DNA from: Candidatus Omnitrophota bacterium
GTDB taxonomy: Bacteria; Omnitrophota; Gorgyraeia; Gorgyraeales; Gorgyraeaceae
Assembly: GCA_030691625.1 (NCBI GenBank)
Contig: JAUYDX010000034.1
Span: 1-50,954, forward strand
Length of the DNA stretch: 50,954 nt
Reading direction: 5' to 3'
The position numbers were made by a program, and so were the translations under genes. Below, in pieces: positions 3,181 to 33,623 of the stretch (positions within the stretch are counted from its first letter, which is position 1; every line of letters begins with the position of its first letter). The notes beneath the pieces are model-generated. The model worked only from the letters and a program-made list of their open reading frames with translations. It was not told the DNA's origin and searched no databases.

Positions 3181-4325
3181 ATGAATTCTGCTATGTTCCT
3201 GGCTGCGTCAGGATACGCCAGAAGTTTTATCCTGGCCTTTATACCGAATATCTTTTCAGGGCAGGTTATGAATTCCTCTATGAAGCCGCAGACCTCTTTC
3301 GCGCTGTTCGCCTTTACTGCGGTGCCATAACCTGTCAGGATCTCGCAATTCCTTGTTTCCTGGCCCAGTATAGGCTGGACTATGATCATGGGCAATGTCT
3401 TTGAAAGCGCCTCTGTTATGGTAAGCCCGCCCGGCTTTGTGACTATTACGTCGCTCGCCTCCATAAATTCATCGACATTGTTCATGTAACCAAAGACCTT
3501 TAACCTCACCCCCTCACCCTTCCCTCTCCCCTTCGGGGAGAGGGTTAGGGTGAGGGAATTTCTCTTTAATTCATTAGCCAGTTTTTCGTTTTTGCCGCAT
3601 ATCGCGACCATCTGGATCCTGTCTTTTATTGCCAGAGGCATCTGGTTGATCCCGGTGATTATCTCTTTCATAGGCCCTGTGCCGAATCCGCCGCTCATTA
3701 CCAGGACATTGAAAAATCCCGGCTCGATGCCGAGCTTCTGTATCATCGCGTCCCTGCCTTTAGAAACGCTGAATACAGGATCACATGGGATTCCCAGTAT
3801 CCTTATCTTATCTTCTGGTATGCCGCGTTTTAAAAGATCTTTTTTTGTCCTCTGTATCGCGCCTGTAAAATAATCTGACGAGCGGGCCAGCCAGAAAGAA
3901 TGGCTTATAAAATCAGTCACCACTGTAACCAGCTTTCCTTTAAAATCCCCTCTGTCCTTCATCCAGGAAATAATCTCGCTCGGCACAAAATGCGTGGAAA
4001 CCACCACGTCTGGTTTTTCAGCCTTTATAAAATCTATAAATTTTCCGCAATTCCACCTGTGCAATGCCCTTCTCACAGGCGCCATAAAAAAATCAATGAC
4101 CCTGGCGTCAAGCATGTAATAAAAAATGCCCCAGAGCGTGGGAGTTCTATTTATAAGGAATAAATATACATTCGGGTACGAGGCCTTAAAAAATGGATTC
4201 GCGTAATCCAGGACATCCACACACTTCGCCTGGATGCCAGGAATGCCGGCCAGGGCCTTTTCTATTGCCATGGCAGCCTTCTTGTGCCCCACTCCCGCGT
4301 ACGCGTATGTAATAAGTATCTTCAT
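3165..4325 (-). CDS. MGDG synthase/UgtP-like diacylglycerol glycosyltransferase (GT28)
   Basis: GVGHKKAA, VVTDF, SDVIVTKPGGLTITEA, PILGQETRN motifs. Confidence 0.85.
   Translation of the reverse strand: MKILITYAYAGVGHKKAAMAIEKALAGIPGIQAKCVDVLDYANPFFKASYPNVYLFLINRTPTLWGIFYYMLDARVIDFFMAPVRRALHRWNCGKFIDFIKAEKPDVVVSTHFVPSEIISWMKDRGDFKGKLVTVVTDFISHSFWLARSSDYFTGAIQRTKKDLLKRGIPEDKIRILGIPCDPVFSVSKGRDAMIQKLGIEPGFFNVLVMSGGFGTGPMKEIITGINQMPLAIKDRIQMVAICGKNEKLANELKRNSLTLTLSPKGRGKGEGVRLKVFGYMNNVDEFMEASDVIVTKPGGLTITEALSKTLPMIIVQPILGQETRNCEILTGYGTAVKANSAKEVCGFIEEFITCPEKIFGIKARIKLLAYPDAARNIAEFITTLH
3511..3556. repeat. Family D palindrome inserted in frame in the GT28 gene
   Basis: CCCTCACCCTTCCCTCTCCCC-TTC-GGGGAGAGGGTTAGGGTGAGGG; encodes SLTLTLSPKGRGKGEG. 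Confidence 0.85.
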
Positions 4326-4333
4326 ATCTTTAA

Positions 4334-4429
4334 CTTCTCGACTCTGCTACCGTAACCTGCTCTCGTGACCGCTCGAAGAATATTGTTCGAGCGGTCACTG
4401 GAACGCTCCGCGAGAACAAAGTCGAGAAC
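4334..4429. repeat. Family A doublet (reverse unit 4334-4378 + forward unit 4385-4429)
   Basis: CTTCTCGACT-N25-CCGCTCGAAG then GTTCGAGCGG-N25-AGTCGAGAAC. Confidence 0.93.
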
Positions 4430-4430
4430 A

Positions 4431-4598
4431 TTAAAATAGGGTGTAAATGAACGGCGCTACGGCTGACGACTGGGTAAAAAATATCAATAAGCCGAAAAGT
4501 AAAAGCACCGCCACTATAGGAATCATCCACCAGAGTTTTCTTGCCCATAAAAATCTGAAAAGTTCGCCTATTATCTTGAATCTTCCTTTAATACCCAT
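4431..4598 (-). CDS. 55-aa DUF5989/SxtK-like small membrane protein
   Basis: Manual translation MGIKGRFKIIGELFRFLWARKLWWMIPIVAVLLLFGLLIFFTQSSAVAPFIYTLF; RKxWWxxP and APFIYTLF signature; below ORF-track length cutoff. Confidence 0.88.
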   Translation of the reverse strand: MGIKGRFKIIGELFRFLWARKLWWMIPIVAVLLLFGLLIFFTQSSAVAPFIYTLF

Positions 4599-5122
4599 TC
4601 CACAGCCTCCGTCAGGTCTTTTTTTATAAAATCAGGTTTATGCTGCCATTTTTTCGCGTCCTTAGGGTCTTCTTTACCGGTAAGAAGCAGGATAGTTTTA
4701 CATCCCATATTTTTCCCAGCCCCCACATCCAGCCTGGAGTCCCCTATAAAATATGCCTTTTTAAAATCTATATCCATGCCCTTAGTGACCTTTTTTATCT
4801 GGCCTGTATTGGGTTTCCTGCAATCGCATCCTGCGTCGCTCGCGTGAGTGCAATAAGAAACTGACCTGATCTTCCCGCCTTTTGCCTCTATTTCTTTAAG
4901 CATGTTTACGGTAATCTCATCCAGCGACCCCTGCGAGTAAAGCCCCTTAGCCACGCCTGCCTGGTTTGATATCACGAATATCTCGTAGCCGTTTTTATTA
5001 AGGAGTTTTATAGCGTCTATCGCGCCAGGCATAAACTCAAACTCTGCCCAGGATTTTATATAATCCCCAAACCCCGGATCCCTATTGATCACGCCGTCTC
5101 TATCCAAAAATATCGCTTTCAT
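4571..5122 (-). CDS. gmhB: D-glycero-D-manno-heptose 1,7-bisphosphate phosphatase (HAD IIIA)
   Basis: FLDRDGVIN, ISNQAG, CxH..CDCRKP, IGDS; start may be 5137. Confidence 0.9.
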   Translation of the reverse strand: MKAIFLDRDGVINRDPGFGDYIKSWAEFEFMPGAIDAIKLLNKNGYEIFVISNQAGVAKGLYSQGSLDEITVNMLKEIEAKGGKIRSVSYCTHASDAGCDCRKPNTGQIKKVTKGMDIDFKKAYFIGDSRLDVGAGKNMGCKTILLLTGKEDPKDAKKWQHKPDFIKKDLTEAVEWVLKEDSR

Positions 5123-5144
5123 CCCGTGTTTCCCCATTTCGCCC

Positions 5145-5187
5145 AAAAAACCCTACAAAGTGACATTGTCAGTTTGTAGGGTTTTTT
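5145..5187. repeat. Family C-like palindrome containing the stop of the 5169 gene
   Basis: AAAAAACCCTACAAAG-TGACATTGTCA-GTTTGTAGGGTTTTTT; same GACATTGTC core as family C but different arms. Confidence 0.75.
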
Positions 5188-5930
5188 TGTTTTTTTAGCT
5201 CCCAGTATTTTGCGTAGCTGAAAATCTGATACAACGCGCCGTTCAGGGCCACCACAAACCCCACCATGCCGTCTTTATAGCCTTTTTTTCTGACATACGC
5301 CCTGAAAAACCTGTCAATTGTCTTCCAGGATATTGTCCAGAAACCTATCTTCCTTTTTTCGTCAAACCATTTCTGTGCCTCAAGGGTAGTCTGGCCATTG
5401 AGCCCCCTGAAAAGCTCCGCGAAATCATCATAGCCCTTATGAATAATATCGCTATTCAGCCTGCCGCACCTTCCCTTGTAAAAAACCCTTGGGTGCACGC
5501 CGACTTCCTCATACTTAAATTCTGATTTTTTGAACAATCTATCCTTGCGGCCAGGATACCACCCGCCGTATTTCACCCAGTAATTGCCTATATATGTCCT
5601 GAGGGGGATATTATAAACCACAAATTCATCTGATTCTATTGCGGCGCTTATCTCATTTTTTAATTCAGGCGTCACCTCTTCATCAGCGTCCAGGCTCAAC
5701 ACCCATTCATTTCTCGCCCTCTGGTACGCCCAGTTCCTGTGCGCGCCTTCTATATCCATGTGGCGCTGAAAAACCGCGGCGCCATTGGACTTAGCTATCT
5801 CCACAGTCCTGTCAGAGCTGAAATCATCCACCACTATGTGCTCATCTGCCCAGCCCTTGGCGCTAGCAATGCACGCGGCTATATTCTGCTCCTCATTTCT
5901 CGCTATGGTAACCACTGAAATCTTCTTCAT
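5169..5930 (-). CDS. GT2 glycosyltransferase (WaaE/KdtX-like)
   Basis: ARNEEQNI, VDDFSSDRT, LDADE, GYKDG motifs. Confidence 0.88.
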   Translation of the reverse strand: MKKISVVTIARNEEQNIAACIASAKGWADEHIVVDDFSSDRTVEIAKSNGAAVFQRHMDIEGAHRNWAYQRARNEWVLSLDADEEVTPELKNEISAAIESDEFVVYNIPLRTYIGNYWVKYGGWYPGRKDRLFKKSEFKYEEVGVHPRVFYKGRCGRLNSDIIHKGYDDFAELFRGLNGQTTLEAQKWFDEKRKIGFWTISWKTIDRFFRAYVRKKGYKDGMVGFVVALNGALYQIFSYAKYWELKKQKNPTN

Positions 5931-5945
5931 CACGCCCTTCTCTCC

Positions 5946-5990
5946 AAACAACTTGACACTACTAACATTGTCATAAGTGTAAAGTTGTTT
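5946..5990. repeat. Family C, short form
   Basis: AAACAACTTGACACTACTAACATTGTCATAAGTGTAAAGTTGTTT; supplies the C-terminus QTTLHL* of the 5971 gene. Confidence 0.9.
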
Positions 5991-7791
5991 GTTTTTTCAG
6001 AATGTAGTATTCGCCGAACATAGCGCTTATTTTAAAGTTATCGCGCATGTACCTGAGGATTTTAAATGTCAATGGGTTCGCCTTATCATCAGTGTATTTA
6101 TCTAAACTATCCCAAAGGCCTTTCCCTGTTATTGCCAGTTTAATATTATACCTTACAATATCCTTTATTACATCATCTTGTTTATCAGGCCTGAAAAGGT
6201 CTGTGTGGAGTATATAATAAAAAGAGGCGTGCGCCCTGTCGGATAAAAAATAAAAAAGAGAGCTTTTATACGTGTCGAATATCTTTTCTCCCGGAGACGT
6301 ATTGGATTCTATGTACCTGACAATGCCTTCTATGGTTTCCTTGTCTTTTTCTGTCACCAATATGCCGCTGGCCCGCGGAAGCTTAAGCTCCGAACGCATG
6401 TTTACAATAGGCGGGAATATTGACCTGAAGCCCTCATTTTTAAACGCGGTAAAAAATCCGAAATAACTGACAAATACCAGCGGAAATACGCAGACCGTAA
6501 GGCTGGCGTACCTGGCGGCAGATAGCGCGTCCTTATTTTTCCTGACAAGCCTCTGCTTTAACCTCTGGACAGCTTCGTAACACACAAATGATAGAAGCAT
6601 ATACGCTGGCGGCATGCCCAGTACCAGATGAAGATGGTCCCTGGATATGCACAGAGACGCCCAGATATAAAAAATAGAGAAAAGCGTGATAAAAATAAAG
6701 CCCTTGTCCTCTTTAGCGATATATCTTTCCTGAAACAGCTTTCTCGCAATAACGAATATGCTGAAGACTACAGCCAGCATTGCCAGGTTAAAAAATCCAT
6801 TCACAGCTCCCATCTTTACGCGATCCAATAGGTAAATATTGTCCACATTATTTACCTGGATCACAAAAATAGCCATTAAGGCAATAATAGCGCTGATAAT
6901 ACTCAGCGATAAAAATAGAAACACCTTCTTCCTTCTGGCATTGCCCCAGTAATAATTATAAAAAAGCCAGGCGAGCAGGAAAAACACAGCTAAAATAACA
7001 ACGCTCGCGGATTTAACATGCGGAAAAGGATTAAATATCATGCGGCCTTTGGCAGAAAGCGCGGCAAACCCGAATACGTAATATAAAAATTCTGTTAGCG
7101 CTCCTTTCGCGGCGAAATAAGCGGTACATGACCCCATTACAGCCAGTATCCCTGTAATAAATACAGACTGTTTCCTTAAGATCTCCGCGGGCTTTTCTCT
7201 TTTCTCCTTACCGGAAAATACAAGACTGACAAATAAAAACGCCAGGTACGATCCCAGGCACGCCATGCCTAAATTTTGCTTTATTAAAAAAGCCGCGCCG
7301 CAGAATAGGCCTGTAAAAAATAAATGCGCGTAATTCCCTGAGCCAAGATATTTAAGATAAAAATATAAAAACGCCAAACCCATTGCCAGGCCATACCAGC
7401 CGTACCACGGGTGCCTTATCTGCGGAACGCCCCAGAAAATGAATAAAACTCCTGATATGGCCGCGAAATAATCCGAACGCGTTATGTTCCTGGAGATCCT
7501 GTAGAGAAGCCATGTAATCAAGAGGCCTAAAAATACTACTGTCATCCTTCCCGCCATTACAGTAGGCGCGAAGGCCTTGAATACAAGCGCCTGCAGATAA
7601 AAAGACCCCGGCGTGACATGTAATATAAAATCCTTATAAGGCGTAAACCCTTTCAGGATTAAATTTGACACATAAAGATGAAAACCCTCGTCATCAATAT
7701 CTATCCCATACCGCGAGAAAAATAAAAAATACGCGGCGGCGAACACTAGCAATAAAACCTCAATCTTATGTCTTAGGATAAATCTAATCAT
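5971..7791 (-). CDS. Multi-pass membrane protein, ArnT/PMT (GT-C)-like
   Basis: DDEG after TM1, PYKDF, IKQN, many hydrophobic segments; start moved to MIRFIL because the ORF-track extension lies in family A repeats. Confidence 0.65.
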   Translation of the reverse strand: MIRFILRHKIEVLLLVFAAAYFLFFSRYGIDIDDEGFHLYVSNLILKGFTPYKDFILHVTPGSFYLQALVFKAFAPTVMAGRMTVVFLGLLITWLLYRISRNITRSDYFAAISGVLFIFWGVPQIRHPWYGWYGLAMGLAFLYFYLKYLGSGNYAHLFFTGLFCGAAFLIKQNLGMACLGSYLAFLFVSLVFSGKEKREKPAEILRKQSVFITGILAVMGSCTAYFAAKGALTEFLYYVFGFAALSAKGRMIFNPFPHVKSASVVILAVFFLLAWLFYNYYWGNARRKKVFLFLSLSIISAIIALMAIFVIQVNNVDNIYLLDRVKMGAVNGFFNLAMLAVVFSIFVIARKLFQERYIAKEDKGFIFITLFSIFYIWASLCISRDHLHLVLGMPPAYMLLSFVCYEAVQRLKQRLVRKNKDALSAARYASLTVCVFPLVFVSYFGFFTAFKNEGFRSIFPPIVNMRSELKLPRASGILVTEKDKETIEGIVRYIESNTSPGEKIFDTYKSSLFYFLSDRAHASFYYILHTDLFRPDKQDDVIKDIVRYNIKLAITGKGLWDSLDKYTDDKANPLTFKILRYMRDNFKISAMFGEYYILKKQTTLHL

Positions 7792-7799
7792 AGGCCTCG

Positions 7800-8062
7800 T
7801 AATACTGTTCGAGCGGACGCAGTGACCATCTGCAGGCACCCTTGTATTGTTCGAGCGGACATAGTGACAATGCATGCAAGCCCAGTCGAGAACTTCTCGA
7901 CTCCGCTCCCGTGATAAGCTCTCCTGACCGCTCGAAGAATATTAGTTGATCATGTTTCAGGCTCTGCTAATACTGTTCGAGCGGACGCAGTGACCATCTG
8001 CAGGCACCCTTGTATTGTTCGAGCGGACATAGTGACAATGCATGCAAGCCCAGTCGAGAACT
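7800..8062. repeat. Family A cluster downstream of GIY-YIG gene, including a 95-bp perfect direct repeat
   Basis: 7800-7894 is identical to 7968-8062; full units at 7849-7893, 7893-7937 (reverse), 8017-8061; truncated units at 7807 and 7975. Confidence 0.93.
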
Positions 8063-8333
8063 ACCATTCACTTTTCCACTCTCCGCTTATCAGTTTTTCT
8101 TTCTTCTCCTTATTCCAATCTTTAACCTGCTTTTCCCTTCTTCTCGCAACCTCTAAGTCAGTATGCTCCTCTATATAAGCGATTCTTTTTACGCCGTGTT
8201 TTGCTGTATATCTGCCGCCAAGTCCTGAAACATGCTGGTCATATCTAAGCTCTGGCTTCCAGGTCATACCAGTGTAATAAGTACCGTCTTTGCATTCTAT
8301 TATGTATACATACCATTTCCAGTTGTCTTTCAT
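8061..8333 (-). CDS. Stand-alone GIY-YIG nuclease (UPF0213/YazA/YhbQ-like), 90 aa
   Basis: WYVYIIECKDGTYYTGMT, RYDQH..G.GGRYT, A..REKQVKDW..EKKEKLI. Confidence 0.92.
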   Translation of the reverse strand: MKDNWKWYVYIIECKDGTYYTGMTWKPELRYDQHVSGLGGRYTAKHGVKRIAYIEEHTDLEVARRREKQVKDWNKEKKEKLISGEWKSEW

Positions 8334-8343
8334 AACATTCTAA

Positions 8344-8434
8344 CTTCTCGACTCTGCTCCCGTAACATGCTCCCGTGACCGCTCGAAGGATATTATTTCC
8401 CGTAACATGCTCCCGTGACCGCTCGAAGGATATT
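8344..8434. repeat. Family A reverse unit upstream of GIY-YIG gene plus 37-bp tandem duplication
   Basis: Unit 8344-8388; TCCCGTAACATGCTCCCGTGACCGCTCGAAGGATATT at 8358-8394 and 8398-8434. Confidence 0.92.
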
Positions 8435-8452
8435 GGCAGGGCCGCGGGCATA

Positions 8453-9862
8453 CTAAGAAGCCTTTATCATGCTCACGCCTATGCGCAGCCAGTAAAAAAA
8501 CTCGCCCAGGCTTTTAATTTTCCCGAGTTCTTTAAATATATACCCCGGCCTCAGGTAAAACCTTCTCGTAAAATCCTTCTGGATTTTTTTTAACTCATCT
8601 ATCTTTAAAGATCCAAATCTCCAGGAAGGCGTGCCTCCGTACAGCACGAATTCATCCCATTTTTCCTCGCCCAGGTAACCGCCCTCTTTCATGATCCTGT
8701 TAAGCTCTGTGCCGGGAAAAGGCGCTGTCAGGGAAAACGCCATCAGGTCCGGATCCAGCTCTATAATCAGATCCATAGTGGCCTTTATATCGTCCATCGT
8801 TTCCAATGGGTGATTACCAAGCATAAAAGTGGCCTCAATGTAGCGAAGCCGGGATTTTCTGCAGATACTGAACGCCTTTTTTATCTGATCTATGGTGATC
8901 CCCTTCTTTATAAGGTTAAGCATCTTCTGACTGCCTGATTCCAGGCCGAAAGAAACCTTCTCGCACCCGCTTTCAACCATTTTAGCCACCATCTCCTCAT
9001 CCACCCTGTCCACCCTGGTAAAGCAGTCCCACGTAATCTTCTTTGACTTAAGGTAATCGCAAACAGGGTAAAATACATCTTTTTTAAAGGTAAACGTGTC
9101 GTCAAGTATCGTAAAATGGTTTGTTTTATATTTAGCCGCGCATTCTTCCATCTCCGCGATTATATTTTTTACGCTTCTATATCTTACCTTTGAGCCGAAA
9201 GTCACCTTGCTCGCGCAAAAGATGCAGCTATATGGACAGCCCCTCGCCGTCATTATCTCAGATATATTTTTAGTAGCCCTGGAAAATGCCCTGCTGGTAT
9301 GCGTCCTTTTATAGAGATCCGCGTTTAAGAATTCCCTGTCAGGAAACGGCAGGATATCAAGGTCTTCAATAAGCGGCCTTAAACCAGTATCTATAAAATT
9401 ATTATCCTGAGCCCTGTAAACCAGCCCCCTTACCTTTGAGAGGTCACTGCCTGAAACTATTGTATTATAAAGTTCCAGAAACGTGATCTCCCCTTCTCCT
9501 CTCATTACTATGTCAAAACACGGAAACTCTTTGAGCGTCCTATGAGGTATAGCGGTGGAATGGACCCCGCCCACCACCACTTTTAAATCCGGGAAATTTT
9601 CCTTTACCAGCTTCGCAATATCATGGCCCGCTGTTATGGTAGAGGTCATACAGCTCAAGCCCACTATAAGAGGATTAGATTTTTTTATAATCTCCAATAT
9701 AGCCGGCCTGCCCAGGTTCTCCACCTCCAGGTCCAGCAATTCCGTCCTTACATTATTCTTCTTGAGCCAGGAGGCAAGATACCCGAGATTTATAGGGTGC
9801 TGGGTTGACACGACCCCTTCGGGCACGGATTCATTCTTTGGCCTTACCAGTATTACGCTCAT
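8453..9862 (-). CDS. Cobalamin-binding radical SAM protein
   Basis: N-terminal B12-binding-like domain (VVVGGVH, GEGE), ARGCPYSCIFC, GLESGS, PFPGT. Confidence 0.88.
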   Translation of the reverse strand: MSVILVRPKNESVPEGVVSTQHPINLGYLASWLKKNNVRTELLDLEVENLGRPAILEIIKKSNPLIVGLSCMTSTITAGHDIAKLVKENFPDLKVVVGGVHSTAIPHRTLKEFPCFDIVMRGEGEITFLELYNTIVSGSDLSKVRGLVYRAQDNNFIDTGLRPLIEDLDILPFPDREFLNADLYKRTHTSRAFSRATKNISEIMTARGCPYSCIFCASKVTFGSKVRYRSVKNIIAEMEECAAKYKTNHFTILDDTFTFKKDVFYPVCDYLKSKKITWDCFTRVDRVDEEMVAKMVESGCEKVSFGLESGSQKMLNLIKKGITIDQIKKAFSICRKSRLRYIEATFMLGNHPLETMDDIKATMDLIIELDPDLMAFSLTAPFPGTELNRIMKEGGYLGEEKWDEFVLYGGTPSWRFGSLKIDELKKIQKDFTRRFYLRPGYIFKELGKIKSLGEFFYWLRIGVSMIKAS

Positions 9863-11166
9863 ATTTTTGAACCAAGGAAATCTTTGAAGGCCTTGATAAT
9901 GTAACTAATTTGCGCAGGGCCTATGCCGGGATAAAGCCCTATAAAGAAACCATTTTTCATAACCTTATCCGCGTTTTTAAGAGAGCCTGGGACCCTGCAT
10001 TCTATATTCTTATAACCCGGCTGGTTAAGGATGTTGCCCGCGAATATAAAACGCGTCTCTATATTTTTTGATTCCAGAAATTTCACTATATCCTGCCTTG
10101 TAAACCCGGCGTCCTCTTTCACGCATAAAGGAAACGCGAACCAGGACACATCCGCTCTTTTATCCCAGCCAGGCAGAGAGAAATATTCCTTAAACTCTGA
10201 GAACGCGGAGTAAAGCAGGCTGAAATTTTTCTTTCTCTTTTCAATAAACCCATCCAGCTTCTCCAGCTGTCTCACGCCTATGGCGGACTGAATATCCGTA
10301 GGCTTAAGATTATATCCTATATCGCTGTAAATATACCTGTGGTCATAAGTGGAATCTATCTCTTTAATAAAATAATCGAATCTTTTATCGCACGCGCCCC
10401 TGGGCCCGGAATCATCCCCGCAGAAGCAATCCCTTCCCCAGTCCCTTATAGAGCGTAGTATCCTGGCCAGGTTCTGGTCCTGCGAAGTGACTGCCCCGCC
10501 CTCGCCCATCGCTATGTGATGTGCCGCGTAAAAACTGAATGTGGCTATGTCGCCGAAAGACCCGGTTATCCTGCCGTCAAATTTTGAACCAAGAGCGTCG
10601 CACGCGTCCTCGATCACGTATAAATCATGCCTATCGCTGAATTCCATTATCTTTTCCATGTCGCAGGGGTTTCCCAGGGTGTGCGTAACCTGAATAGCCC
10701 TTACGCGGCCGGAAACAGCTTTTTCCAGCAGACCCTCGTCTATATTAAAGGTGTCCATCCTGGCGTCCACAAAAACAGGGACCAGCCTATTCTGGATTAT
10801 AGGAGCGACCGTAGTAGGAAACGCGAGTCCGCAGGTAATAATCTCGTCTCCGGGTTTCAGCCTGTCTTTTAACCTGTTGGACATAAGGCCGGCGATCGCG
10901 ACAAGATTCGCTGAAGACCCTGAACTCACTAAGATAGTATTCTTAACGCCTAAAATCTCAGAAAATTTCCGCTCAAACTCCTTAGTGTATTTTCCGGCTG
11001 TGAGCCAAAAATCCAGCACAGCGTCCACAGCGGAGATCATTTCCTTTTCATTATAGACCCTGCCGGCGTAGTGAATCTTATCCTTGCCCGGAGAAAAAGC
11101 GCTTTTTTTATGGTATGCCTTGTAATACTCTTTTACTAATTTGAATATATCCTTTTTTTCCACCAC
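9859..11166 (-). CDS. rfbH: CDP-6-deoxy-D-xylo-4-hexulose 3-dehydrase (RfbH/DdhC)
   Basis: SGSSANL, FPTTVAP, HTLGNP, SFYAAHHIAMGEGG (His in place of the PLP Lys), RDWGRDC, YNLKPTD. Confidence 0.92.
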   Translation of the reverse strand: MVEKKDIFKLVKEYYKAYHKKSAFSPGKDKIHYAGRVYNEKEMISAVDAVLDFWLTAGKYTKEFERKFSEILGVKNTILVSSGSSANLVAIAGLMSNRLKDRLKPGDEIITCGLAFPTTVAPIIQNRLVPVFVDARMDTFNIDEGLLEKAVSGRVRAIQVTHTLGNPCDMEKIMEFSDRHDLYVIEDACDALGSKFDGRITGSFGDIATFSFYAAHHIAMGEGGAVTSQDQNLARILRSIRDWGRDCFCGDDSGPRGACDKRFDYFIKEIDSTYDHRYIYSDIGYNLKPTDIQSAIGVRQLEKLDGFIEKRKKNFSLLYSAFSEFKEYFSLPGWDKRADVSWFAFPLCVKEDAGFTRQDIVKFLESKNIETRFIFAGNILNQPGYKNIECRVPGSLKNADKVMKNGFFIGLYPGIGPAQISYIIKAFKDFLGSKI

Positions 11167-12086
11167 TCTATTGTCCTCCTTAATCCCTCGTCCAGGCTGA
11201 CCCTGGGTTTCCAGCCTAAAAGTTTCCTGGCCAGGGTATTGTCGCAGTAAAACCTGGATACCTCGCCCGGCCTGTAAGAAAGTTTTCCTGTCTTAAGCCT
11301 GATGCCTGAACCTGCCATGGAAACAATCTTCTCCGCCAAATCTATTATCCTGTAATCTTTTCCGCACCCTATATTGATTATCCTGCCTATTGCCCTGCTG
11401 TTAGAGCCCAGCCTGATAAAACCATCCACGATATCGCTCACGTAATTAAACTCCCTTGTCTGGTCTCCTTTTGTCATCTCGAAATCATGGCCTCTTAAAG
11501 CGGATTCTATCAGGGACGGTATAAACATATTATTCACCTGGCCGGGGCCGTAAGTCAGAAACGGCCTCGCTGTGACAATGGGCATTTTAAATGAGCGGTA
11601 GAGCATCCCGCAGTAAAATGTGGCAGCCGCCTTTGACGCGGAATAAGGAGAAACCGGGCTTGGCAGATCCTTTTCCCTGAAAGGCGCCTTATTATCCCCG
11701 TATTCCTCGCAGGTCCCGGTATTGACTATCGCTTCGCAATCGGTATCTTTAAGAGCCAGCATAAAATTCATGGCGCCTGAGACATTTACCCTGAGCATAT
11801 CGTCCAGTAAAGACATATCCCGCGAGGCGTTTACCAATGAAGCCAGGTGAAAGGCCTTGTCAGGATTGATTTTTTTTATCTCTGTCCTAAGGCCAGGGCC
11901 GCAGATATCGCATTCGATAATATTGATCTTATCTTCAATCTCTTTTACCCTCCATAAATCCATTCCCGGCTCTATGACGCAGTAAAGCTCAGCGCCTAAA
12001 TCAATAAGCGTTTTTACAAGATGCGAACCTATAAATCCGTCCCCGCCGCTCACCACTACCTTAAGATTTTTATAGTTTTTCTTCAT
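11136..12086 (-). CDS. NAD-dependent epimerase/reductase (possible CDP-3,6-dideoxyhexose 4-reductase)
   Basis: GGDGFIG, SPYSASK; context between rfbG-like and rfbH. Confidence 0.75.
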   Translation of the reverse strand: MKKNYKNLKVVVSGGDGFIGSHLVKTLIDLGAELYCVIEPGMDLWRVKEIEDKINIIECDICGPGLRTEIKKINPDKAFHLASLVNASRDMSLLDDMLRVNVSGAMNFMLALKDTDCEAIVNTGTCEEYGDNKAPFREKDLPSPVSPYSASKAAATFYCGMLYRSFKMPIVTARPFLTYGPGQVNNMFIPSLIESALRGHDFEMTKGDQTREFNYVSDIVDGFIRLGSNSRAIGRIINIGCGKDYRIIDLAEKIVSMAGSGIRLKTGKLSYRPGEVSRFYCDNTLARKLLGWKPRVSLDEGLRRTIEWWKKRIYSN

Positions 12087-13035
12087 ACCACGCTATTGTT
12101 TTTTTAAGGCCCTGGTTTAAGGTATATTCCGGCTTCCAGTTTAAAACCCTTCTCGCCTTCATAGAGCATAAAAACTGGTTTTTTATCTCGTATTTCGCCT
12201 TATTCAGGATCTTATAATCAGGTTTTTTACCTGCCAGCTTATATATCCTCTTTACCATCTCTATCACTGTGATCGGGTTTTCACAGCTGAAATTGAACGC
12301 CTCGCCGTATAACCTCAGTTTTTTCATATTTTCAGCCAGCGCCATATAGCCGTTCACTATGTCCTCCACATAGACATAGTCGCGTATAAATTTTCCGTCG
12401 CTGCGTATAAGAAGCGTCCCTCCTTTTACAGCGCGCCTTATCGCGTCAGGCGCGATCCTTGATAAATGGAAATCCCCTGGGCCGTAGATATTGCCGCACC
12501 TCGTAACGCAAACAGGCACCCTGTACGTATTCCAGTAAGCGCGGCATATAAGGTCTGCGCAGCTTTTAGAAACATCATAGGGGTGGCTTCCTTTTAACGC
12601 TGCGTCTTCTTTATACGGGAGGATTTTATGGCTTCCGTACGCCTTGTCGCTTGATGCCACGACAATGGCCTCTATAAATTTCTTATCCCTTGACGCCTCA
12701 AGTATATTCCACGTGCCCTCTATATTAGACTTAAAAGCCGCCACAGGATCTTTATTCGCCTCGCCCACTATGGCCTCTGCAGCGATATGGAAAATAACCT
12801 GCGGTTTATATTTATTCACTATTTTCTTTACTGATCTTAAATCGCTGATATCCTCTTTGATAGAGATAATATTCTTTCTCAGGCCTTCCAGCATGTTATC
12901 GGGCCTATTTTTAACCTTATCCACGCCTATTATCCTGGCTCCGCTGCCTGATAAAACCCTGGCCATGTTAGAGCCCAAAAACCCCTCATGGCCTGTGATT
13001 AAAACAGTCTTGTTTTTCCAGAAATCAGCCATCAA
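12070..13035 (-). CDS. rfbG: CDP-glucose 4,6-dehydratase-like SDR
   Basis: FWKNKTVLITG, ASSDKAYG, PYDVSKSCAD, RCGNIYGPGD; directly after rfbF. Confidence 0.75.
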   Translation of the reverse strand: MMADFWKNKTVLITGHEGFLGSNMARVLSGSGARIIGVDKVKNRPDNMLEGLRKNIISIKEDISDLRSVKKIVNKYKPQVIFHIAAEAIVGEANKDPVAAFKSNIEGTWNILEASRDKKFIEAIVVASSDKAYGSHKILPYKEDAALKGSHPYDVSKSCADLICRAYWNTYRVPVCVTRCGNIYGPGDFHLSRIAPDAIRRAVKGGTLLIRSDGKFIRDYVYVEDIVNGYMALAENMKKLRLYGEAFNFSCENPITVIEMVKRIYKLAGKKPDYKILNKAKYEIKNQFLCSMKARRVLNWKPEYTLNQGLKKTIAWYEEKL

Positions 13036-13054
13036 TACCTCCTACCGTAACAAC

Positions 13055-13156
13055 AATACTGTTCGAGCGGACGGACTGACAATACATGCGAGCTCAGTCG
13101 AGAACTTCTCGACTCTGCTACCGTAATACGCTCTCGGGACCGCTCGAAGAATATTA
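13055..13156. repeat. Family A doublet (forward 13061-13105 + reverse 13105-13149), 'empty' form
   Basis: Central palindrome AGTCGAGAACTTCTCGACT. Confidence 0.93.
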
Positions 13157-13173
13157 GGTTTTTACAAGAGCTC

Positions 13174-13965
13174 CTACCATACTTTCCAGGCAGCTTTATT
13201 ATTGCGCCAGACATCGTTAAGAAGCTCCATATCCCTTTGGGTGTCCATGCACTGCCAGAACCCGTCGTGTTTATAAATAGACATCTGGTTATTTTTCGCT
13301 ATTTTCTCCAGCGGCTCCCTTTCCAGTATGCATTTATCGTCCTTTTTCAGGTAGTCAAATATACTCTTATTGAAGACAAAAAAACCTCCGTTTATGTAAG
13401 CTTCTTTTACCTGCGGCTTTTCGCTGAATTCCTTTACCGTTTTGCCATCGCTTATAAGCTCCCCGAACCTGGACTGAGGATGCACGCCCAAAACAGTGGC
13501 GATCTTTTTACTATCCTTATGAAATTTCACCAGCTTCCCGATATCAGCGTCTGTCACGCCGTCCCCGTATGTAACCATAAATTCGTCTGAATCTATGTAC
13601 TGCTCTATCTTCTTAAGCCTGGAGCCGGTCATGGATTCAAGTCCTGTGTCCGCGATAGTGATGTTCCACTCTTCCTGAGCGCCCTTGTCATGAAACTTCA
13701 TTTCTGATTTTTTTCCCAGATGTATGGTGAAATCATCGTTCATTGCCCTGTAGTTTAAAAAATATTCCTTTATCATGTCGCCTTTGTAACCCGCGCACAG
13801 GATAAAATCCCTGTACCCGTAATGGTCATATATCTTCATTATGTGCCAGAGTATGGGCCTCGAGCCTATCTCCACAAGCGGCTTAGGCCTGAACTCCGTC
13901 TCCTGCATTAACCTCATTCCTCTTCCCCCGCATAGGATCACAACCTTCATATTTTCCATAACCAT
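13174..13965 (-). CDS. rfbF: Glucose-1-phosphate cytidylyltransferase
   Basis: LCGGRGMRL..ETEFRPKPLVEIG, WHIMKIY, TYGDG, GFWQCMDT. Confidence 0.95.
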   Translation of the reverse strand: MVMENMKVVILCGGRGMRLMQETEFRPKPLVEIGSRPILWHIMKIYDHYGYRDFILCAGYKGDMIKEYFLNYRAMNDDFTIHLGKKSEMKFHDKGAQEEWNITIADTGLESMTGSRLKKIEQYIDSDEFMVTYGDGVTDADIGKLVKFHKDSKKIATVLGVHPQSRFGELISDGKTVKEFSEKPQVKEAYINGGFFVFNKSIFDYLKKDDKCILEREPLEKIAKNNQMSIYKHDGFWQCMDTQRDMELLNDVWRNNKAAWKVW

Positions 13966-13975
13966 ACCTCCTGAA

Positions 13976-14078
13976 TAATACTGTTCGAGCGGACGTTGTG
14001 ACCATACATTAAAACCCAGTCGAGAACTTCTCGACTCCGCTCCCGTGATAATCTCTCGTGACCGCTCGAAGAATATTA
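13976..14078. repeat. Family A doublet (forward 13983-14027 + reverse 14027-14071), 'empty' form
   Basis: Same architecture as 13055; flank contains the TAA of the 14076 gene. Confidence 0.93.
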
Positions 14079-14759
14079 GTGTTTTATTTTATAGGCGAGC
14101 ATCTCGCCTATAAAACCGAACACCGCCTTTATGTTTACCTTTGAAGCGCCTTTTTCCCTTTTTTTAAACACCACGGACACGTCGCCGATCTTTGAACCGA
14201 GATTGGAAAATCTTATCATTATCTCCGCGTCTATGAACCAGCCCTTGGACACAAGGCTTATGCCCTGAAAAATCGACCGCTTGAAAATCTTAGGCGTGCC
14301 ATTCAGGTCGTGATCATTGACAGAAAATAAAAGCGGACATATGATATTGTAAAAAAAACTTATAAATTTCCTGGAAAACCCGTCGTGCCTTTCCACGCGC
14401 TTAACCTTGCATAAATCCAGGCCCTCTTTTTTAAGCTTATCGTAAACGCGGATTATCTCTGAGGCATCCACCTGGTTATCCCCGCACATAAATCCGAGAT
14501 AGTCTCCCCGGGATTTCTCCAGGCCCTGCCTGATGCCCCAGCCGTATCCTTCGTTCACGTTAACTTTTACTACCTTAAGCGCGTTTATTTTTTTCTTCAG
14601 CTCTTCCAGTATCTTGCCTGTCTTATCGATAGACCCGTTATCCACAGCCACTATCTCGTAGCTGATATTACTGCCGGAAAGCACGGCGTCTATCCCGTTT
14701 AAAACGCCGGCCGCATTATCCTCCTCATTGTAAAAAGGTATGACTACAGAAAGCTCCAT
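14076..14759 (-). CDS. GT2, polyprenol-phosphate glycosyltransferase (DPM-like)
   Basis: IPFYNEED, VDNGSID, NEGYG, REKGASK. Confidence 0.85.
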   Translation of the reverse strand: MELSVVIPFYNEEDNAAGVLNGIDAVLSGSNISYEIVAVDNGSIDKTGKILEELKKKINALKVVKVNVNEGYGWGIRQGLEKSRGDYLGFMCGDNQVDASEIIRVYDKLKKEGLDLCKVKRVERHDGFSRKFISFFYNIICPLLFSVNDHDLNGTPKIFKRSIFQGISLVSKGWFIDAEIMIRFSNLGSKIGDVSVVFKKREKGASKVNIKAVFGFIGEMLAYKIKH

Positions 14760-14760
14760 T

Positions 14761-17314: not shown

Positions 17315-17413
17315 CTTCTCGACTTCGCTTCCGTAACTGGCTCTCGTGATCGCTCGAAGAATATTGTTGTTCGAGCGGAAATTATGGCTCTACATACGCG
17401 CCCAGTCGAGAAC
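17315..17413. repeat. Family A doublet (reverse 17315-17359 + forward 17369-17413)
   Basis: Both units 45 bp. Confidence 0.92.
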
Positions 17414-27287: not shown

Positions 27288-27330
27288 AACAACTTGACAC
27301 TTGTGACAATGTTACAAGTGTCAAGTTGTT
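27288..27330. repeat. Family C, short near-perfect palindrome
   Basis: AACAACTTGACACTTGTGACA-A-TGTTACAAGTGTCAAGTTGTT; provides the stop of the 27321 gene (KTT*). Confidence 0.9.
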
Positions 27331-28421
27331 TTGAATTGCTCCACTACGTATCTGATCTCTTGCTCTGTCAGCTCGGGATACATAGGCAAGCTCATGATTT
27401 CTTCGCAGCACTTTTCCGCAACAGGGAAATCTCTCTTTTTATAGCCAAGTTCTTTGTAACATTCCTGCAGATGTATTGGTATCGGATAATGAATAAGGGT
27501 ACGCACGCCTTTATCAGCTAATTTTTCCATGAGGACTGCCCTATTTTTCACCCTGACTGTATATTGGTGATATATGTGCTTCGCGTAACTCTCTTCATAA
27601 GGAAGAATCATATCGAGCTTTGCCTCTTTAAATAGTTTCGTATATAAATCCGCGTTTTTTCTGCGCTTTTCATTCCATTCGTTTAGATGTTTAAGTTTCA
27701 CGCGGAGTATGGCTGCCTGCAATGTATCAAGCCTGGAATTATACCCTTTTATTATGTGCTCGTATCTGCCTTTCCTGCCATAATCATGAAGAAGCGACAT
27801 CCTGTCTTTTATTTCTTCTGAACTCGTGATCACCATTCCGCCATCCCCGAATGCGCCTAAATTCTTGGTTGGATAAAACGAGAAACACGCCGCGTCACCG
27901 AAACTTCCTACCTTTTTATTTTTATAAAGCGCTCCGTGCGCCTGGGCGCAGTCCTCAATAACCTTAAGCTTATGTTTTTTCGCGATCTGCATAATAGGGT
28001 CCATATCAGCCGGATGGCCATAGAGATGGACTAATAGAATCGCCCTGGTCTTTTTGGTAATGGCCTTTTCCAGTTTCGTGACATCAATACAATAGGTCTT
28101 TTCTTCTGTATCCACGAAAACCGGCCTTGCGCCAGCCATGGAGATCCCAAGGCTTGTGGCTATGTAAGTATACGACGGGGTTATCACCTCATCGCCTTGT
28201 CCTATGCCGCAGGCAAGGCACGCTAAAAACAAGGCGTCTGTGCCTGAATTTACGCCTATGCCGTATTTAACCCCGCAGTATTCCGCGAATTCCTTTTCAA
28301 AGAGCCCCACGTCCTCTCCCAGGATAAACCCGCCTGAAAGCATCACATTTTCAATCGGGCCTTTCAGCTCATCCTTTATCTCTTCGTATTGTCTTTTAAG
28401 CGTAAAAATATCGACTTTCAT
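27321..28421 (-). CDS. DegT/DnrJ/EryC1/StrS aminotransferase
   Basis: [35 protein letters not shown]. Confidence 0.93.
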
Positions 28422-28437: not shown

Positions 28438-28519
28438 CTTCTCGACTCTACTCCCGTAACCGGCTCTCGTGATCGCTCGAAAAATATTAGTGTTCGAGCG
28501 AGCGAAGCGAGTCGAGAAC
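28438..28519. repeat. Family A doublet (reverse 28438-28482 + short 28-bp forward unit 28492-28519)
   Basis: GTTCGAGCGAGCGAAGCGAGTCGAGAAC encodes the C-terminus [10 protein letters not shown] of the GT9 gene. Confidence 0.88.
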
Positions 28520-29563: not shown

Positions 29564-29612
29564 TATCTTGGTGCCTGGCACCATTTAAAAAGGTGCAAGG
29601 CACCAAGATAAT
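29562..29612. repeat. Family G inverted doublet in divergent intergenic region
   Basis: ATTATCTTGGTGCCTGGCACC-N9-GGTGCAAGGCACCAAGATAAT (1 mismatch). Confidence 0.8.
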
Positions 29613-33501: not shown

Positions 33502-33623
33502 CTTCTCGACTCCGCTCCCGTGATAAGCTCTCATGACCGCTCGAAGAATATCCCTCGACAAGCTCGGGACATGTTAGTGTTCGAGCGGACTTATTGGCTA
33601 TACACGCAAGCCCAGTCGAGAAC
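33502..33623. repeat. Family A doublet (reverse 33502-33546, forward 33579-33623) with nested TCCCTCGACAAGCTCGGGA element
   Basis: Last base of the forward unit is the G of the TAG stop of the 33623 gene. Confidence 0.92.

What the first reader, a model, noticed from the sequence alone, without database searches (positions are those of the whole stretch)
7800..8434. Candidate new element: GIY-YIG nuclease gene at the centre of a family A doublet, with empty doublets elsewhere
Seen: the 90-aa gene lies between a forward unit ending AGTCGAGAAC (8017-8061; its last base is the G of the TAG stop) and a reverse unit starting CTTCTCGACT (8344-8388). At 7849-7937, 13061-13149 and 13983-14071 the same two units are joined directly as AGTCGAGAACTTCTCGACT. 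AACT occurs on both sides of the gene (8059-8062, 8342-8345), so removing the gene between them yields exactly the empty junction. Repeat density peaks around the gene, which is functionally unrelated to the glycan operon it interrupts. Established analogy: RAYT transposases are flanked by the REPs they spread, but no RAYT or transposase is seen here. Inference: an autonomous GIY-YIG/repeat element that recognises, nicks or spreads its own 45-bp units, with non-autonomous derivatives.
Basis: partly seen in the sequence, partly recalled or inferred. Interest (0 to 1): 0.88.

Follow-up and report, generated by a model that had tools for sequence, protein, structure and literature searches.

The report
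Small nuclease gene flanked by its own repeats
A tiny GIY-YIG nuclease gene in a groundwater Omnitrophota genome sits tightly between copies of a hairpin repeat that litters the genome, an arrangement published in 2025 for the related Ssn nucleases, so this is a new branch of a known kind and not a new kind.

Summary
A single-copy 90-aa GIY-YIG gene (8061-8333, minus strand) lies between inverted copies of a repeat unit found 163 times in this 1.44-Mb Omnitrophota genome, and gene-less "doublets" exist (7 in the genome).

The link is not chance. All five Omnitrophota orthologs examined, each among different neighbouring genes, are flanked the same way. So are most of 45 homologs from Omnitrophota, Patescibacteria and WOR-3: 41 of 45 upstream and 31 of 41 downstream, against 0-2 in control windows. 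The repeat's stem sequence changes with the protein tree, and the variant beside the gene is the commonest of the three typed in that genome, in the eight checked.

The kind is already published. Chenal et al. 2025 describe Ssn nucleases, single-domain GIY-YIG ssDNA endonucleases flanked by their own hairpin repeats. This clade fails their operational tests, both BLAST to SsnA and the SRM motif. Its tree position is unresolved: sister to Ssn, or among UPF0213 proteins.

Best reading: an Ssn-like nuclease paired with its own repeat. Spreading of the repeats by the nuclease is unproven. The "AACT duplication" and the "doublet centre as insertion site" are not supported. Verdict: new variant of a known kind, moderate interest.

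The parts
8061..8333 (-). 90-aa single-domain GIY-YIG nuclease gene, single copy in the assembly
   Evidence: ORF. Pfam PF01541 E 1.6e-15. Single copy. Y8, Y10, Y19, Y20, R30, H34 and E67 are invariant in 4 orthologs. dN/dS is 0.03-0.06 where computable.
8011..8061 (+). Full G..C (type 1) unit with a degenerate 5' tag (TGTATT). Its 3' end AGTCGAGAAC overlaps the gene's stop codon. It is antisense to the gene.
   Evidence: Identical to 7849-7893.
7969..8010 (+). Partial type 1 unit: tag AATACT plus the 5' half, lacking the AGTCGAGAA end
   Evidence: family D3
8344..8394 (-). Full C..G (type 2) unit with its tag. Its 3' end lies 10 nt upstream of the gene's ATG, in the gene's sense.
8398..8434 (-). 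Partial duplicate of the type 2 unit, 100% identical to 8358-8394
   Evidence: family D4
7843..7943 (.). Gene-less doublet: type 1 unit (7849-7893, +) joined directly to a type 2 unit (7893-7937, -), with tags on the outside
7801..7842 (+). Partial type 1 unit upstream of the empty doublet, part of the 168-bp tandem duplication 7792-7893 / 7960-8061
13055..13155 (.). Gene-less doublet. As ssDNA it folds at -20.6 kcal/mol, z -3.95.
13977..14077 (.). Gene-less doublet
4335..4429 (.). Typical head-to-head pair: type 2 (-), AATATT, type 1 (+). It lies between two minus-strand genes. As ssDNA it folds at -24.5 kcal/mol, z -5.6.
28439..28519 (.). Head-to-head pair at a site where orthologous loci of five related genomes lack it
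17316..17413 (.). Head-to-head pair between two minus-strand genes
33503..33623 (.). Type 2 (-) and type 1 (+) units with a spacer between them, lying between two minus-strand genes

Best explanation
This is an Ssn-like system: a single-domain GIY-YIG nuclease together with its own genome-wide hairpin repeat.

Each repeat unit is strand-specific. It has a 5' tag (AATATT), then a short stem whose two arms are complementary, then a tandem G.A/A.G step closed by a G-C pair, then a variable insert.

Inferred from the experimentally characterised relatives (SsnA): the protein binds the folded unit on single-stranded DNA and cuts that strand near the tag.

Shown here: the gene travels between genomes and phyla together with flanking units, and the unit's arms change with the protein lineage.

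Not shown: which role cutting serves. It might spread and maintain the units (RAYT-like). It might restrict incoming or recombining ssDNA, as in Neisseria. It might do both.
For: 1. All Omnitrophota orthologs examined are flanked within 0-23 nt by a sense C..G unit upstream and an antisense G..C unit downstream. These are G000, G004, G009 and G039 and G096, 5 of 5. Their neighbouring genes differ. Synonymous sites are saturated while dN/dS is 0.03-0.06.

2. Among 45 non-redundant clade loci from several phyla, a strict unit lies within 120 nt upstream in sense in 41 of 45, downstream in antisense in 31 of 41, and on both sides in 27. Controls gave 1 of 42 and 0 of 34 at 1 kb, 2 of 38 and 1 of 24 at 2 kb, and 0 of 45 and 1 of 41 after shuffling.

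3. Within G000 only 3 ORFs of 50 aa or more, beside about 1263 gene proxies, are flanked this tightly on both sides.

4. The 16 paralog loci at 35-44% identity have no family-A unit within 1.5 kb.

5. The stem arms co-vary: CTTC/GAAG, GTTC/GAAC, CCCT/AGGG, GCCT/AGGC, CCCC/GGGG, CTCC/GGAG, TTTC/GAAA, TGCT/AGCA. The closing pair is G-C, C-G or A-T. The stem class needs 2 changes on the protein tree, against a shuffled mean of 13.0 and minimum of 8.

6. The variant beside the gene is the commonest of the three typed in its genome. CCTGAGC..TCGAAGG gave 47, 24, 33 and 32 in G041 and G043-G045, against controls of 0-1. TTCGACY..RGAGAA gave 257 in G048 against a control of 9. TTCGAGC..TCGAGAA gave 158 and 134 in G000 and G004. 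In the two genomes richest in a second variant, chimeric 5'/3' halves numbered 0 against 70 cognate units in G041 (47 plus 23) and 4 against at least 25 in G039 (15 plus at least 10).

7. Gene and repeats co-occur. In 41 relatives, 4 of the 10 genomes with 10 or more units have the ortholog, and 0 of the 31 with fewer do. In an even sample of 201 Omnitrophota, the 3 genomes with the gene rank 1st, 2nd and 5th by unit count.

8. The published precedent is SsnA and three homologs, which cut ssDNA next to their own flanking hairpin repeats (PMC11893778).

9. Unit termini are at least 90% conserved while the interiors vary.
Against: No biochemistry exists for this clade.

Single units do not fold better than shuffles under nearest-neighbour DNA energies: z was +0.85, -0.30, +0.50, -0.42 and -1.74. 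The hairpin therefore rests on covariation, plus my recalled knowledge that Y-GA-R tandem mismatches are stable.

Covariation of the two arms could also arise from units being copied whole.

G005 (126 units) and G003 (70 units) show no ortholog, though they are 79% and 74% complete. G011, G006, G001, G007 and G226 hold 10-19 units without the gene.

The clade fails the published Ssn criteria. The SRM pattern gave 0 hits. BLAST to the N. gonorrhoeae SsnA homolog gave E 4.7e-9, and only 3 of 42 clade members reach 1e-10.

Kin share labels, so the tree and co-occurrence statistics overstate independence.
Confidence: 0.7

Rival explanations
1. The gene with its two flanking units is, or recently was, an autonomous IS-like transposon. 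The GIY-YIG nuclease is its transposase. The gene-less doublets, pairs and single units are its non-autonomous derivatives, which the nuclease mobilises in trans.
For: The gene occupies different genomic contexts in five Omnitrophota genomes, yet always keeps its units.

It is sporadic in the phylum, found in 3 of 201 genomes. Close homologs (58-82% identity) occur in Patescibacteria, WOR-3 and other MAGs, each with matching units.

G039 is the only genome outside family f1 among the 41 relatives that has the ortholog. It is also the only one of the 17 non-f1 genomes searched with family-A units (10, against none in the other 16).

One MAG holds two copies (L061 and L063).

A head-to-head pair is present or absent at an orthologous site: present in 2 of 7 genomes.

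The gene-less doublets have exactly the gene's flanks.

The Ssn authors raise the same idea.
Against: The gene is single-copy in the five Omnitrophota genomes where it was found.

No target-site duplication or conserved junction is seen.

The long units are old and diverged, and the only identical long pair lies next to the gene.

The commonest arrangement is not the doublet (53 against 11).

No excision or empty-site joint appears in the contigs of the source-like run, though contigs drop rare variants.

GIY-YIG enzymes cut but have no known strand-transfer chemistry (recalled).
Confidence: 0.25
2. As in Neisseria, the nuclease is a host ssDNA-restriction or recombination-control factor. The units are chromosomal marks that make incoming or exposed single strands cleavable. 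The units spread by other means.
For: This is the only in-vivo role demonstrated for any relative: an ssnA knockout raises transformation with NTS-bearing DNA 5-fold.

The units are strand-specific and oriented relative to genes: 28 starts against 10 stops, and 45 stops against 11 starts.

The window's units cluster in a glycan or surface-polysaccharide gene region, with DegT, radical-SAM and PMT_2-like neighbours. This resembles the NTS clusters around surface genes.
Against: Competence was not examined in this genome.

This reading does not explain why the gene itself is always tightly flanked, or why it moves between phyla with its units.

Nothing here tests it.
Confidence: 0.2
3. The repeats are REP-like RNA or DNA structural elements, such as terminators, mRNA stabilisers or protein-binding sites, maintained by the host. 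The nuclease gene is a selfish or homing-type gene that merely prefers to land in them, or hitch-hikes with them.
For: Pairs fold strongly: z -5.6 and -3.95.

They sit between co-directional genes with a fixed polarity relative to transcription.
Against: The protein is a bare 90-aa catalytic domain with no DNA-binding module, which homing enzymes have (module content recalled).

Only one of 7 doublets is filled.

The arms of the flanking units track the protein phylogeny across phyla, which a passive landing site would not do.

There is no Rfam match.
Confidence: 0.08
4. The flanking is chance or an assembly artefact, in a repeat-rich MAG.
For: The MAG has 101 contigs. Logan contigs of the best run break at the repeats.
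Against: The same arrangement recurs in independent assemblies from many studies and phyla. The gene's depth (7.3) matches that of its flanks (6.7-8.8).
Confidence: 0.02

Closest known systems
Ssn family (SsnA with NTS/SRM repeats; Chenal et al. 2025, Nat Commun, PMC11893778)
   Same: Both are single-domain GIY-YIG proteins of about 90 aa. In both, the gene is flanked on both sides by a strand-specific repeat made of a conserved 5' tag plus a hairpin, present in tens to hundreds of copies, mostly intergenic, with sequence varying alongside the protein. In my tree the clade is sister to Ssn-type proteins at 96/83 support.
   Different: BLAST to the N. gonorrhoeae SsnA homolog gives only 45 bits, E 4.7e-9, and 3 of 42 clade members reach the paper's 1e-10.

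The mean score to UPF0213-type proteins is higher: 64 against 51.5 bits. Grouping the clade with UPF0213 is not rejected (p-AU 0.63).

The published SRM pattern finds nothing here.

The repeat is built differently. The tag is AATATT rather than CGTCA. There is a 4-5 bp stem plus a tandem G.A step. The loop ranges from 5 to about 31 nt. There are two unit types, usually head-to-head on a shared palindromic tag.

The hosts are uncultivated Omnitrophota, Patescibacteria and WOR-3, which the paper's main text does not mention.
RAYT / REP-REPIN-BIME systems
   Same: A single-copy nuclease gene is flanked by inverted copies of a short repeat that is abundant in the genome. There are two alternating unit types in inverted pairs. 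Pairs form long hairpins.
   Different: The flanked gene is GIY-YIG, not a Y1 HUH transposase. The three PF01797 genes of this genome lie 3.3, 16 and 12 kb from the nearest unit. There is no GTAG-type 5' motif.
IS200/IS605 and their palindrome-bearing miniature derivatives
   Same: Both have subterminal hairpins, strand-specific ends and miniature gene-less derivatives. The left and right units differ.
   Different: There is no Y1 transposase and no TnpB. The gene is single-copy. No conserved target tetranucleotide was seen.
UPF0213 / YhbQ small GIY-YIG proteins (PDB 1zg2, 1ywl; E. coli YhbQ)
   Same: These are the closest solved structures by sequence, at E 7e-16 and 9.8e-12. They share the H-x-S-G-x-G-x-K-Y-T motif and a similar length.
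   Different: The UPF0213-type genes examined have no flanking repeat family. These are E. coli yhbQ, one Legionella plasmid gene, one Radiobacillus gene, and 14 of 15 Omnitrophota paralogs. The clade also has its own TWKP and C-terminal GEWxKW signatures.
GIY-YIG homing endonucleases (I-TevI type)
   Same: Both share the catalytic fold, and both are mobile genes found in variable contexts.
   Different: There is no linker or DNA-binding domain, no intron or phage context, and only one distant relative in IMG/VR.

Membership tests
GIY-YIG superfamily | Match to the GIY-YIG catalytic domain model above the curated cut-off | tested here: met
   PF01541 at 57.6 bits against a cut-off of 22.6, covering residues 6-79
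GIY-YIG superfamily | Conserved catalytic Tyr, Tyr, Arg and Glu | tested here: met
   Y8/Y10, Y19/Y20, R30, H34 and E67 are invariant in 4 orthologs and kept across the clade. Assigning these residues to catalytic roles is recalled knowledge. SsnA Y6A, Y17A and E64A lose cleavage.
Ssn family (Chenal et al. 2025) | Single-domain protein shorter than 150 aa | tested here: met
   90 aa with one Pfam domain
Ssn family (Chenal et al. 2025) | blastp hit to N. meningitidis SsnA at E <= 1e-10 with 75% coverage, searched proteome by proteome | tested here: not met
   I used the N. gonorrhoeae homolog (L077) as a stand-in, with a search space of 400,000 residues. The window protein gave 45.1 bits, E 4.7e-9, 91% coverage. 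3 of 42 clade members pass, while 5 of 5 other Ssn-type references pass.
Ssn family (Chenal et al. 2025) | Top CDD model is cd10448 (GIY-YIG_unchar_3) | not testable with these tools
   No CDD or rpsblast is available here. Indirect evidence is mixed: sister to Ssn-type in the tree, but higher scores to UPF0213-type.
Ssn family (Chenal et al. 2025) | SRM motif (HGTCWY..RNCYNB) on both sides within 500 bp | tested here: not met
   0 matches within 1.5 kb in L001-L004. The same expression found 9 of 9 NTS in the Neisseria locus. It found none in four other Ssn-type loci that have visible hairpins, so the expression is strict.
Ssn family (Chenal et al. 2025) | Gene flanked by its own hairpin repeat, which is abundant in the genome | tested here: met
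Ssn family (Chenal et al. 2025) | Site-specific cleavage of ssDNA only, next to the repeat | not testable with these tools
   Needs biochemistry
RAYT/REP | The flanked gene encodes a Y1 (HUH) transposase | tested here: not met
   The flanked gene is GIY-YIG. The PF01797 genes lie 3.3-16 kb from any unit.
Insertion sequence / autonomous transposon | Multiple copies per genome, defined ends and a target-site signature | tested here: not met
   The gene is single-copy in G000. Junction spacers are variable. One MAG has two copies.
UPF0213/YhbQ | Closest sequence relatives are UPF0213 proteins | tested here: inconclusive
   The best PDB hits are UPF0213 proteins, and the mean bit score is higher to UPF0213-type. 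The ML tree puts the clade with Ssn-type. The AU test does not reject either placement.

The most novel reading that the evidence does not exclude
A GIY-YIG nuclease clade acts as the mobilising enzyme of a hairpin-repeat family. That would be a second, non-HUH route to REP/REPIN-like elements. The gene-plus-units cassette moves horizontally between Omnitrophota, Patescibacteria and WOR-3 and seeds each new genome with units. The arms of those units then co-evolve with the protein, giving a natural recognition code built on a mini-hairpin with a tandem G.A step.
Probability: 0.25. Interest if true: 0.8.

Novelty: new variant of a known kind. Interest (0 to 1): 0.45.

Why it matters
It extends the Ssn principle, a tiny nuclease with its own genomic hairpin repeat, in three ways. 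It reaches a separate protein clade, a differently built repeat, and uncultivated small-genome phyla, where the gene is sporadic and appears horizontally transferred together with its repeats.

The natural series of compensating stem variants offers a ready-made test of how a 90-aa domain reads an ssDNA hairpin: CTTC/GAAG, CCCT/AGGG, GCCT/AGGC, CCCC/GGGG and TTCGACC/TGGAGAA. It could also widen the toolbox of site-specific ssDNA nucleases.

For annotation, it explains a repeat family that breaks assemblies and gets translated into the ends of neighbouring ORFs.

Tried and rejected
- **Empty orthologous site for the gene.** The radical-SAM neighbour has no ortholog in 12 genomes of the genus; the best match is 35% identical. 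A filled-against-empty comparison at the gene's own locus was therefore impossible. I used another site instead. That site shows presence or absence of a repeat pair, but the genomes are too diverged to define a target site.
- **Reads.** Only Logan contigs of one study were on offer, and no RNA holder was listed. Laid on 6800-9400, the contigs break at the repeats. No joint skips the gene. This is no evidence against rare empty alleles.
- **Viral contigs.** One distant relative at 40% identity, so no vector was found.
- **Rfam.** No match at E <= 1 in 3500-15000.
- **NCBIfam.** No family.
- **Thermodynamic support for a single-unit hairpin.** Not obtained.
- **The AACT direct repeat as a target duplication.** Rejected, because orthologs have other spacers.
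- **RAYT as the partner enzyme.** Rejected.
- **Inverted repeats flanking the 16 paralogs.** Only L014 and L017 showed any. L017 is an Ssn-type protein with repeats of the GTCATTGCGAG...GAAGCAATC kind.
- **Literature.** No paper held both GIY-YIG and 'repetitive extragenic palindromic'. None linked GIY-YIG with REPIN or RAYT. Searches turned up only PMC11893778 as relevant. Of that paper I read the abstract and outline, Results parts 1-2 of 4, section 10, the Discussion, Methods sections 17 and 18, and some found passages. Its supplements were not seen, and they may list whether proteins of this clade fall in cd10448.

Rows I left out:
- L072-L075, which are partial or distant matches.
- L025, L028 and L076, which duplicate L002-L004.
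- L030, L053, L068 and L070, whose ORFs I could read for fewer than 74 aa.
- For the tree, only clade proteins of 84-98 aa were used, de-duplicated to 39.
- Stem labels for L027 and L059 were set by eye, because the strict finder found no unit there.
Full report
**What is there**

The window is contig C94 of a 1.44-Mb, 101-contig, 44% G+C assembly. It is an Omnitrophota MAG, judging by the titles of the closest public records.

At 8061-8333 on the minus strand lies a 90-aa ORF. It is a bare GIY-YIG domain: PF01541 at E 1.6e-15, with no NCBIfam model. It is the only such gene in the assembly apart from a UvrC-like ORF.

Its stop codon overlaps the last base of a repeat unit ending AGTCGAGAAC at 8052-8061. 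Ten bases upstream of its ATG lies the inverted unit starting CTTCTCGACT at 8344. There are seven such doublets in the genome.

The neighbours are a PMT_2-like membrane protein (weak hit), a B12-binding radical-SAM enzyme and a DegT-type aminotransferase.

**Anatomy of the repeat**

I found 163 units in G000. A unit has a conserved 5' tag, AATATT, which sits directly upstream of 101 of 163 units. Positions -6 to -1 are 80-99% conserved, and nothing is conserved downstream.

After the tag comes [G/C]TTCGAGCG, then an interior of 2-40 nt, then AGTCGAGAA[C/G].

The first and last bases are complementary in 154 of 163 units: 85 are G..C and 69 are C..G. The termini are at least 90% conserved while the interior of the 45-nt units varies. 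The median is 12 (G..C) and 9 (C..G) differences between copies. The only identical long pair is 7849-7893 and 8017-8061, next to the gene.

Short units carry inserts such as GCGAAGC or GGCCGAAGGCC.

Because the tag is a palindrome, two inverted units commonly share it.

Units have a polarity relative to genes. The 3' end of C..G units abuts a gene start 28 times and a stop 10 times. The 3' end of G..C units abuts a stop 45 times and a start 11 times (the gene models are ORF proxies). So the picture 'gene at the centre of a doublet' is what any gene between two pairs looks like. Even so, only three ORFs in the genome are flanked that tightly on both sides.

**Is the link to the nuclease real?**

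Yes.
- Among 41 relatives, close orthologs (76-82% identity) exist in G004, G009 and G039. All are flanked in the same way, yet among different neighbouring genes. A fifth case, G096, came from an even sample of 201 Omnitrophota and is flanked too.
- Synonymous sites between these orthologs are saturated, while dN/dS is 0.03-0.06 where it can be computed. Conservation of the flanking unit ends is therefore not mere recency.
- Sixteen paralog loci (35-44% identity) carry no family-A unit.
- A scan of one genome per species returned 52 loci. I used 48 of them and left out L072-L075 as partial or distant. They come from Omnitrophota, many Patescibacteria lineages, WOR-3 and MAGs labelled Gammaproteobacteria.
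- After removing duplicates and unreadable ORFs, 45 loci remained. A strict unit stands within 120 nt upstream in sense in 41 of 45, downstream in antisense in 31 of 41, and on both sides in 27. The strict definition is a 4-nt arm, GA, a base N, 3-46 nt, the complement of N, GA, then the complementary arm. Controls gave 1 of 42 and 0 of 34 at 1 kb, 2 of 38 and 1 of 24 at 2 kb, and 0 of 45 and 1 of 41 after shuffling.

**Co-variation**

The arms differ between lineages but stay complementary: CTTC/GAAG, GTTC/GAAC, CCCT/AGGG, GCCT/AGGC, CCCC/GGGG, CTCC/GGAG, TTTC/GAAA and TGCT/AGCA. The GA...GA steps stay fixed, and the pair next to them is G-C, C-G or A-T.

On the protein tree the stem class (TTC-type against CCT-like) needs 2 changes in 39 rows. 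The shuffled mean is 13.0 and the minimum 8 in 300 shuffles. Two labels were set by eye, and related rows share labels.

The variant beside the gene is the commonest of the three variants typed in the same genome:

| Variant | Counts (control) |
|---|---|
| CCTGAGC..TCGAAGG | 47 in G041, 24 in G043, 33 in G044, 32 in G045, 5 in G042 (0-1); 0 in G000 |
| TTCGACY..RGAGAA | 257 in G048 (9) |
| TTCGAGC..TCGAGAA | 158 in G000, 134 in G004 |

Some genomes hold two variants: G041 has 47 and 23, and G039 has 15 and at least 10. Chimeric halves are nonetheless rare. There were 0 in G041 and 3 plus 5 in five genomes, and several of those span neighbouring units or look spurious.

**Co-occurrence**

In the 41 relatives, 4 of the 10 genomes with 10 or more units have the ortholog, and none of the 31 with fewer do. 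In the 201-genome sample the three gene-bearing genomes rank first, second and fifth by unit count, at 158, 134 and 13.

There are exceptions. G005 (126 units) and G003 (70 units) have no detectable ortholog, but they are the least complete of the repeat-rich genomes, at 79% and 74%. G011, G006, G001, G007 and G226 hold 10-19 units without the gene.

The Y1 transposase-like genes of G000 lie 3.3, 16 and 12 kb from the nearest unit.

**What is already known**

A literature search led to Chenal et al. 2025 (PMC11893778). They describe the Ssn family as follows.
- The proteins are single-domain GIY-YIG proteins of about 94 aa (CDD cd10448).
- Their genes are flanked by hairpin repeats (NTS in Neisseria, SRM in general) that occur in hundreds of copies.
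- Four purified homologs cut only ssDNA, on one strand, a few bases upstream of their own repeat.
- In N. meningitidis the enzyme lowers transformation by NTS-bearing DNA.
- The authors themselves liken NTS-ssnA-NTS to an IS and to RAYT/REP, and leave mobility as a hypothesis.

**Is it a member of that family?**

I recovered a canonical SsnA homolog from a N. gonorrhoeae record. It is 94 aa and is surrounded by nine NTS copies. I also recovered E. coli YhbQ and six other named small GIY-YIG genes.

- **BLAST criterion.** With a proteome-sized search space, the window protein scores 45.1 bits and E 4.7e-9 against the Neisseria protein. Only 3 of 42 clade members reach the paper's 1e-10 threshold, whereas 5 of 5 other Ssn-type references do.
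- **Similarity to other small GIY-YIG proteins.** Mean scores are higher to UPF0213-type proteins (64.1 bits; hhalign 170.6) than to Ssn-type (51.5 bits; hhalign 124.2). The nearest solved structures are UPF0213 proteins (1zg2 at E 7e-16).
- **Tree.** An ML tree with a UvrC domain as a long-branched outgroup puts the clade (94/90 support) as sister to the Ssn-type clade (100/99), with 96/83 for the pair. Holding it with the UPF0213-type proteins instead is not rejected (p-AU 0.63).
- **SRM motif.** The published expression finds nothing around the gene in four genomes.
- **CDD.** The CDD assignment could not be tested here.

I therefore file it as a distinct Ssn-like clade, not as a member of Ssn in the strict sense. 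At least 286 clusters at 90% identity belong to it. They are named only 'GIY-YIG nuclease family protein' or 'putative endonuclease', and many sit on contigs of about 1 kb.

**How it most likely works**

Shown:
- a strand-specific unit with a conserved tag, complementary arms and two fixed GA steps;
- selection on the unit ends;
- tight two-sided flanking of the gene;
- joint horizontal distribution of gene and units.

Inferred:
- The unit folds on single-stranded DNA into a mini-hairpin, with the arms paired, a tandem G.A/A.G step in a pyrimidine-GA-purine context, and a closing pair. In Patescibacteria the whole unit is just this 19-nt hairpin.
- The nuclease binds the hairpin and cuts near the tag, as SsnA does.

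Weakness: nearest-neighbour energies give single units no advantage over shuffles (z from +0.85 to -1.74). The head-to-head pair and the doublet, by contrast, fold strongly (z -5.6 and -3.95). That tandem G.A steps and GNA-loop mini-hairpins such as GCGAAGC are unusually stable in DNA is recalled knowledge, not tested here.

**Does it spread the units?**

This remains open.
- **In favour:**
  - The gene sits in changing contexts.
  - Its distribution is sporadic and crosses phyla, always with matching units.
  - One MAG has two copies.
  - A repeat pair is present at an orthologous site in G000 and G004 but absent in five other genomes of the genus. One of those (G006) carries an Ssn-type GTCATTGCGAGG...GAAGCAATC pair there instead.
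- **Against:**
  - The gene is single-copy.
  - There is no target-site signature.
  - The long units are old.
  - Doublets are the minority arrangement.
  - No empty-site joint appears in the contigs of the one available run.

**Verdict**

In kind it is already known, so it rates as a new variant of a known kind, of moderate interest.

Noticed in passing
L100 (G006:C46, upstream of the ortholog of window gene 27324-28421); L017 (G016:C123): The same genus also carries canonical Ssn-type repeats of the form GTCATTGCGAGG...GAAGCAATC. One inverted pair sits at the very intergenic site where G000 and G004 have a family-A pair. A related genome (G016) has an Ssn-type protein (96 aa, with ESFTSKYN and a W-x-DL tail) flanked by such repeats. 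Two nuclease-and-repeat systems therefore coexist in this lineage.
   Followed up: partly
window 5971-7875 (-) and window 28487-29584 (-): Repeat units get translated into the ends of ORFs. The first 28 residues of the 634-aa ORF are unit sequence (MHCHYVRSNN...), so its real start is probably MIRFILRHK. The gene upstream of the 28439-28519 pair ends inside the unit in G000 and G004, which replaces the C-terminus seen in G009 and G008.
   Followed up: partly
window 7792-7893 and 7960-8061: A 168-bp tandem duplication places an empty doublet directly beside the gene-bearing one. 7834-7893 and 8002-8061 are identical, while the partner type 2 units are only 86% alike.
   Followed up: partly
G000 C96:186-467, C23:822-1097, C47:51023-51280: There are three Y1_Tnp (PF01797) matches in ORFs of 215-303 aa. 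Such genes occur in 37 of 41 relatives. None is near a family-A unit, and whether they have repeats of their own was not examined.
   Followed up: partly
window 17440; G000 C4:21446, C7:12418, C9:20364, C60:15820, C87:7015, C87:17843: A palindrome, TTGACA-N(4-9)-TGTCAA, occurs 7 times against about 2.2 expected from shuffles. Similar TTGACA...TGTCA motifs stand next to some units and at the orthologous intergenic site in G011 and G012. It may be a promoter or operator, or another small repeat.
   Followed up: partly
run X3, record 13: A 490-nt contig from another sample of the same study carries a diverged ortholog of the nuclease gene. Its loose end contains GTCGAAGGG, the Patescibacteria-type unit arm.
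   Followed up: no
L014 (G007:C21): One UPF0213-type paralog (89 aa) has an imperfect flanking inverted repeat of about 60 nt, of a third kind (GAGTCCCGAGC...GCGAGGGA.ACA), with z 4.5. Its abundance in that genome was not checked.
   Followed up: no
L056, L058 (Patescibacteria loci): Downstream of the gene, a second unit is followed by a copy of the gene's first bases (..ATACCTTTATGA..), or by a repeat of the whole unit array. This suggests tandem or decayed copies of the cassette.
   Followed up: no
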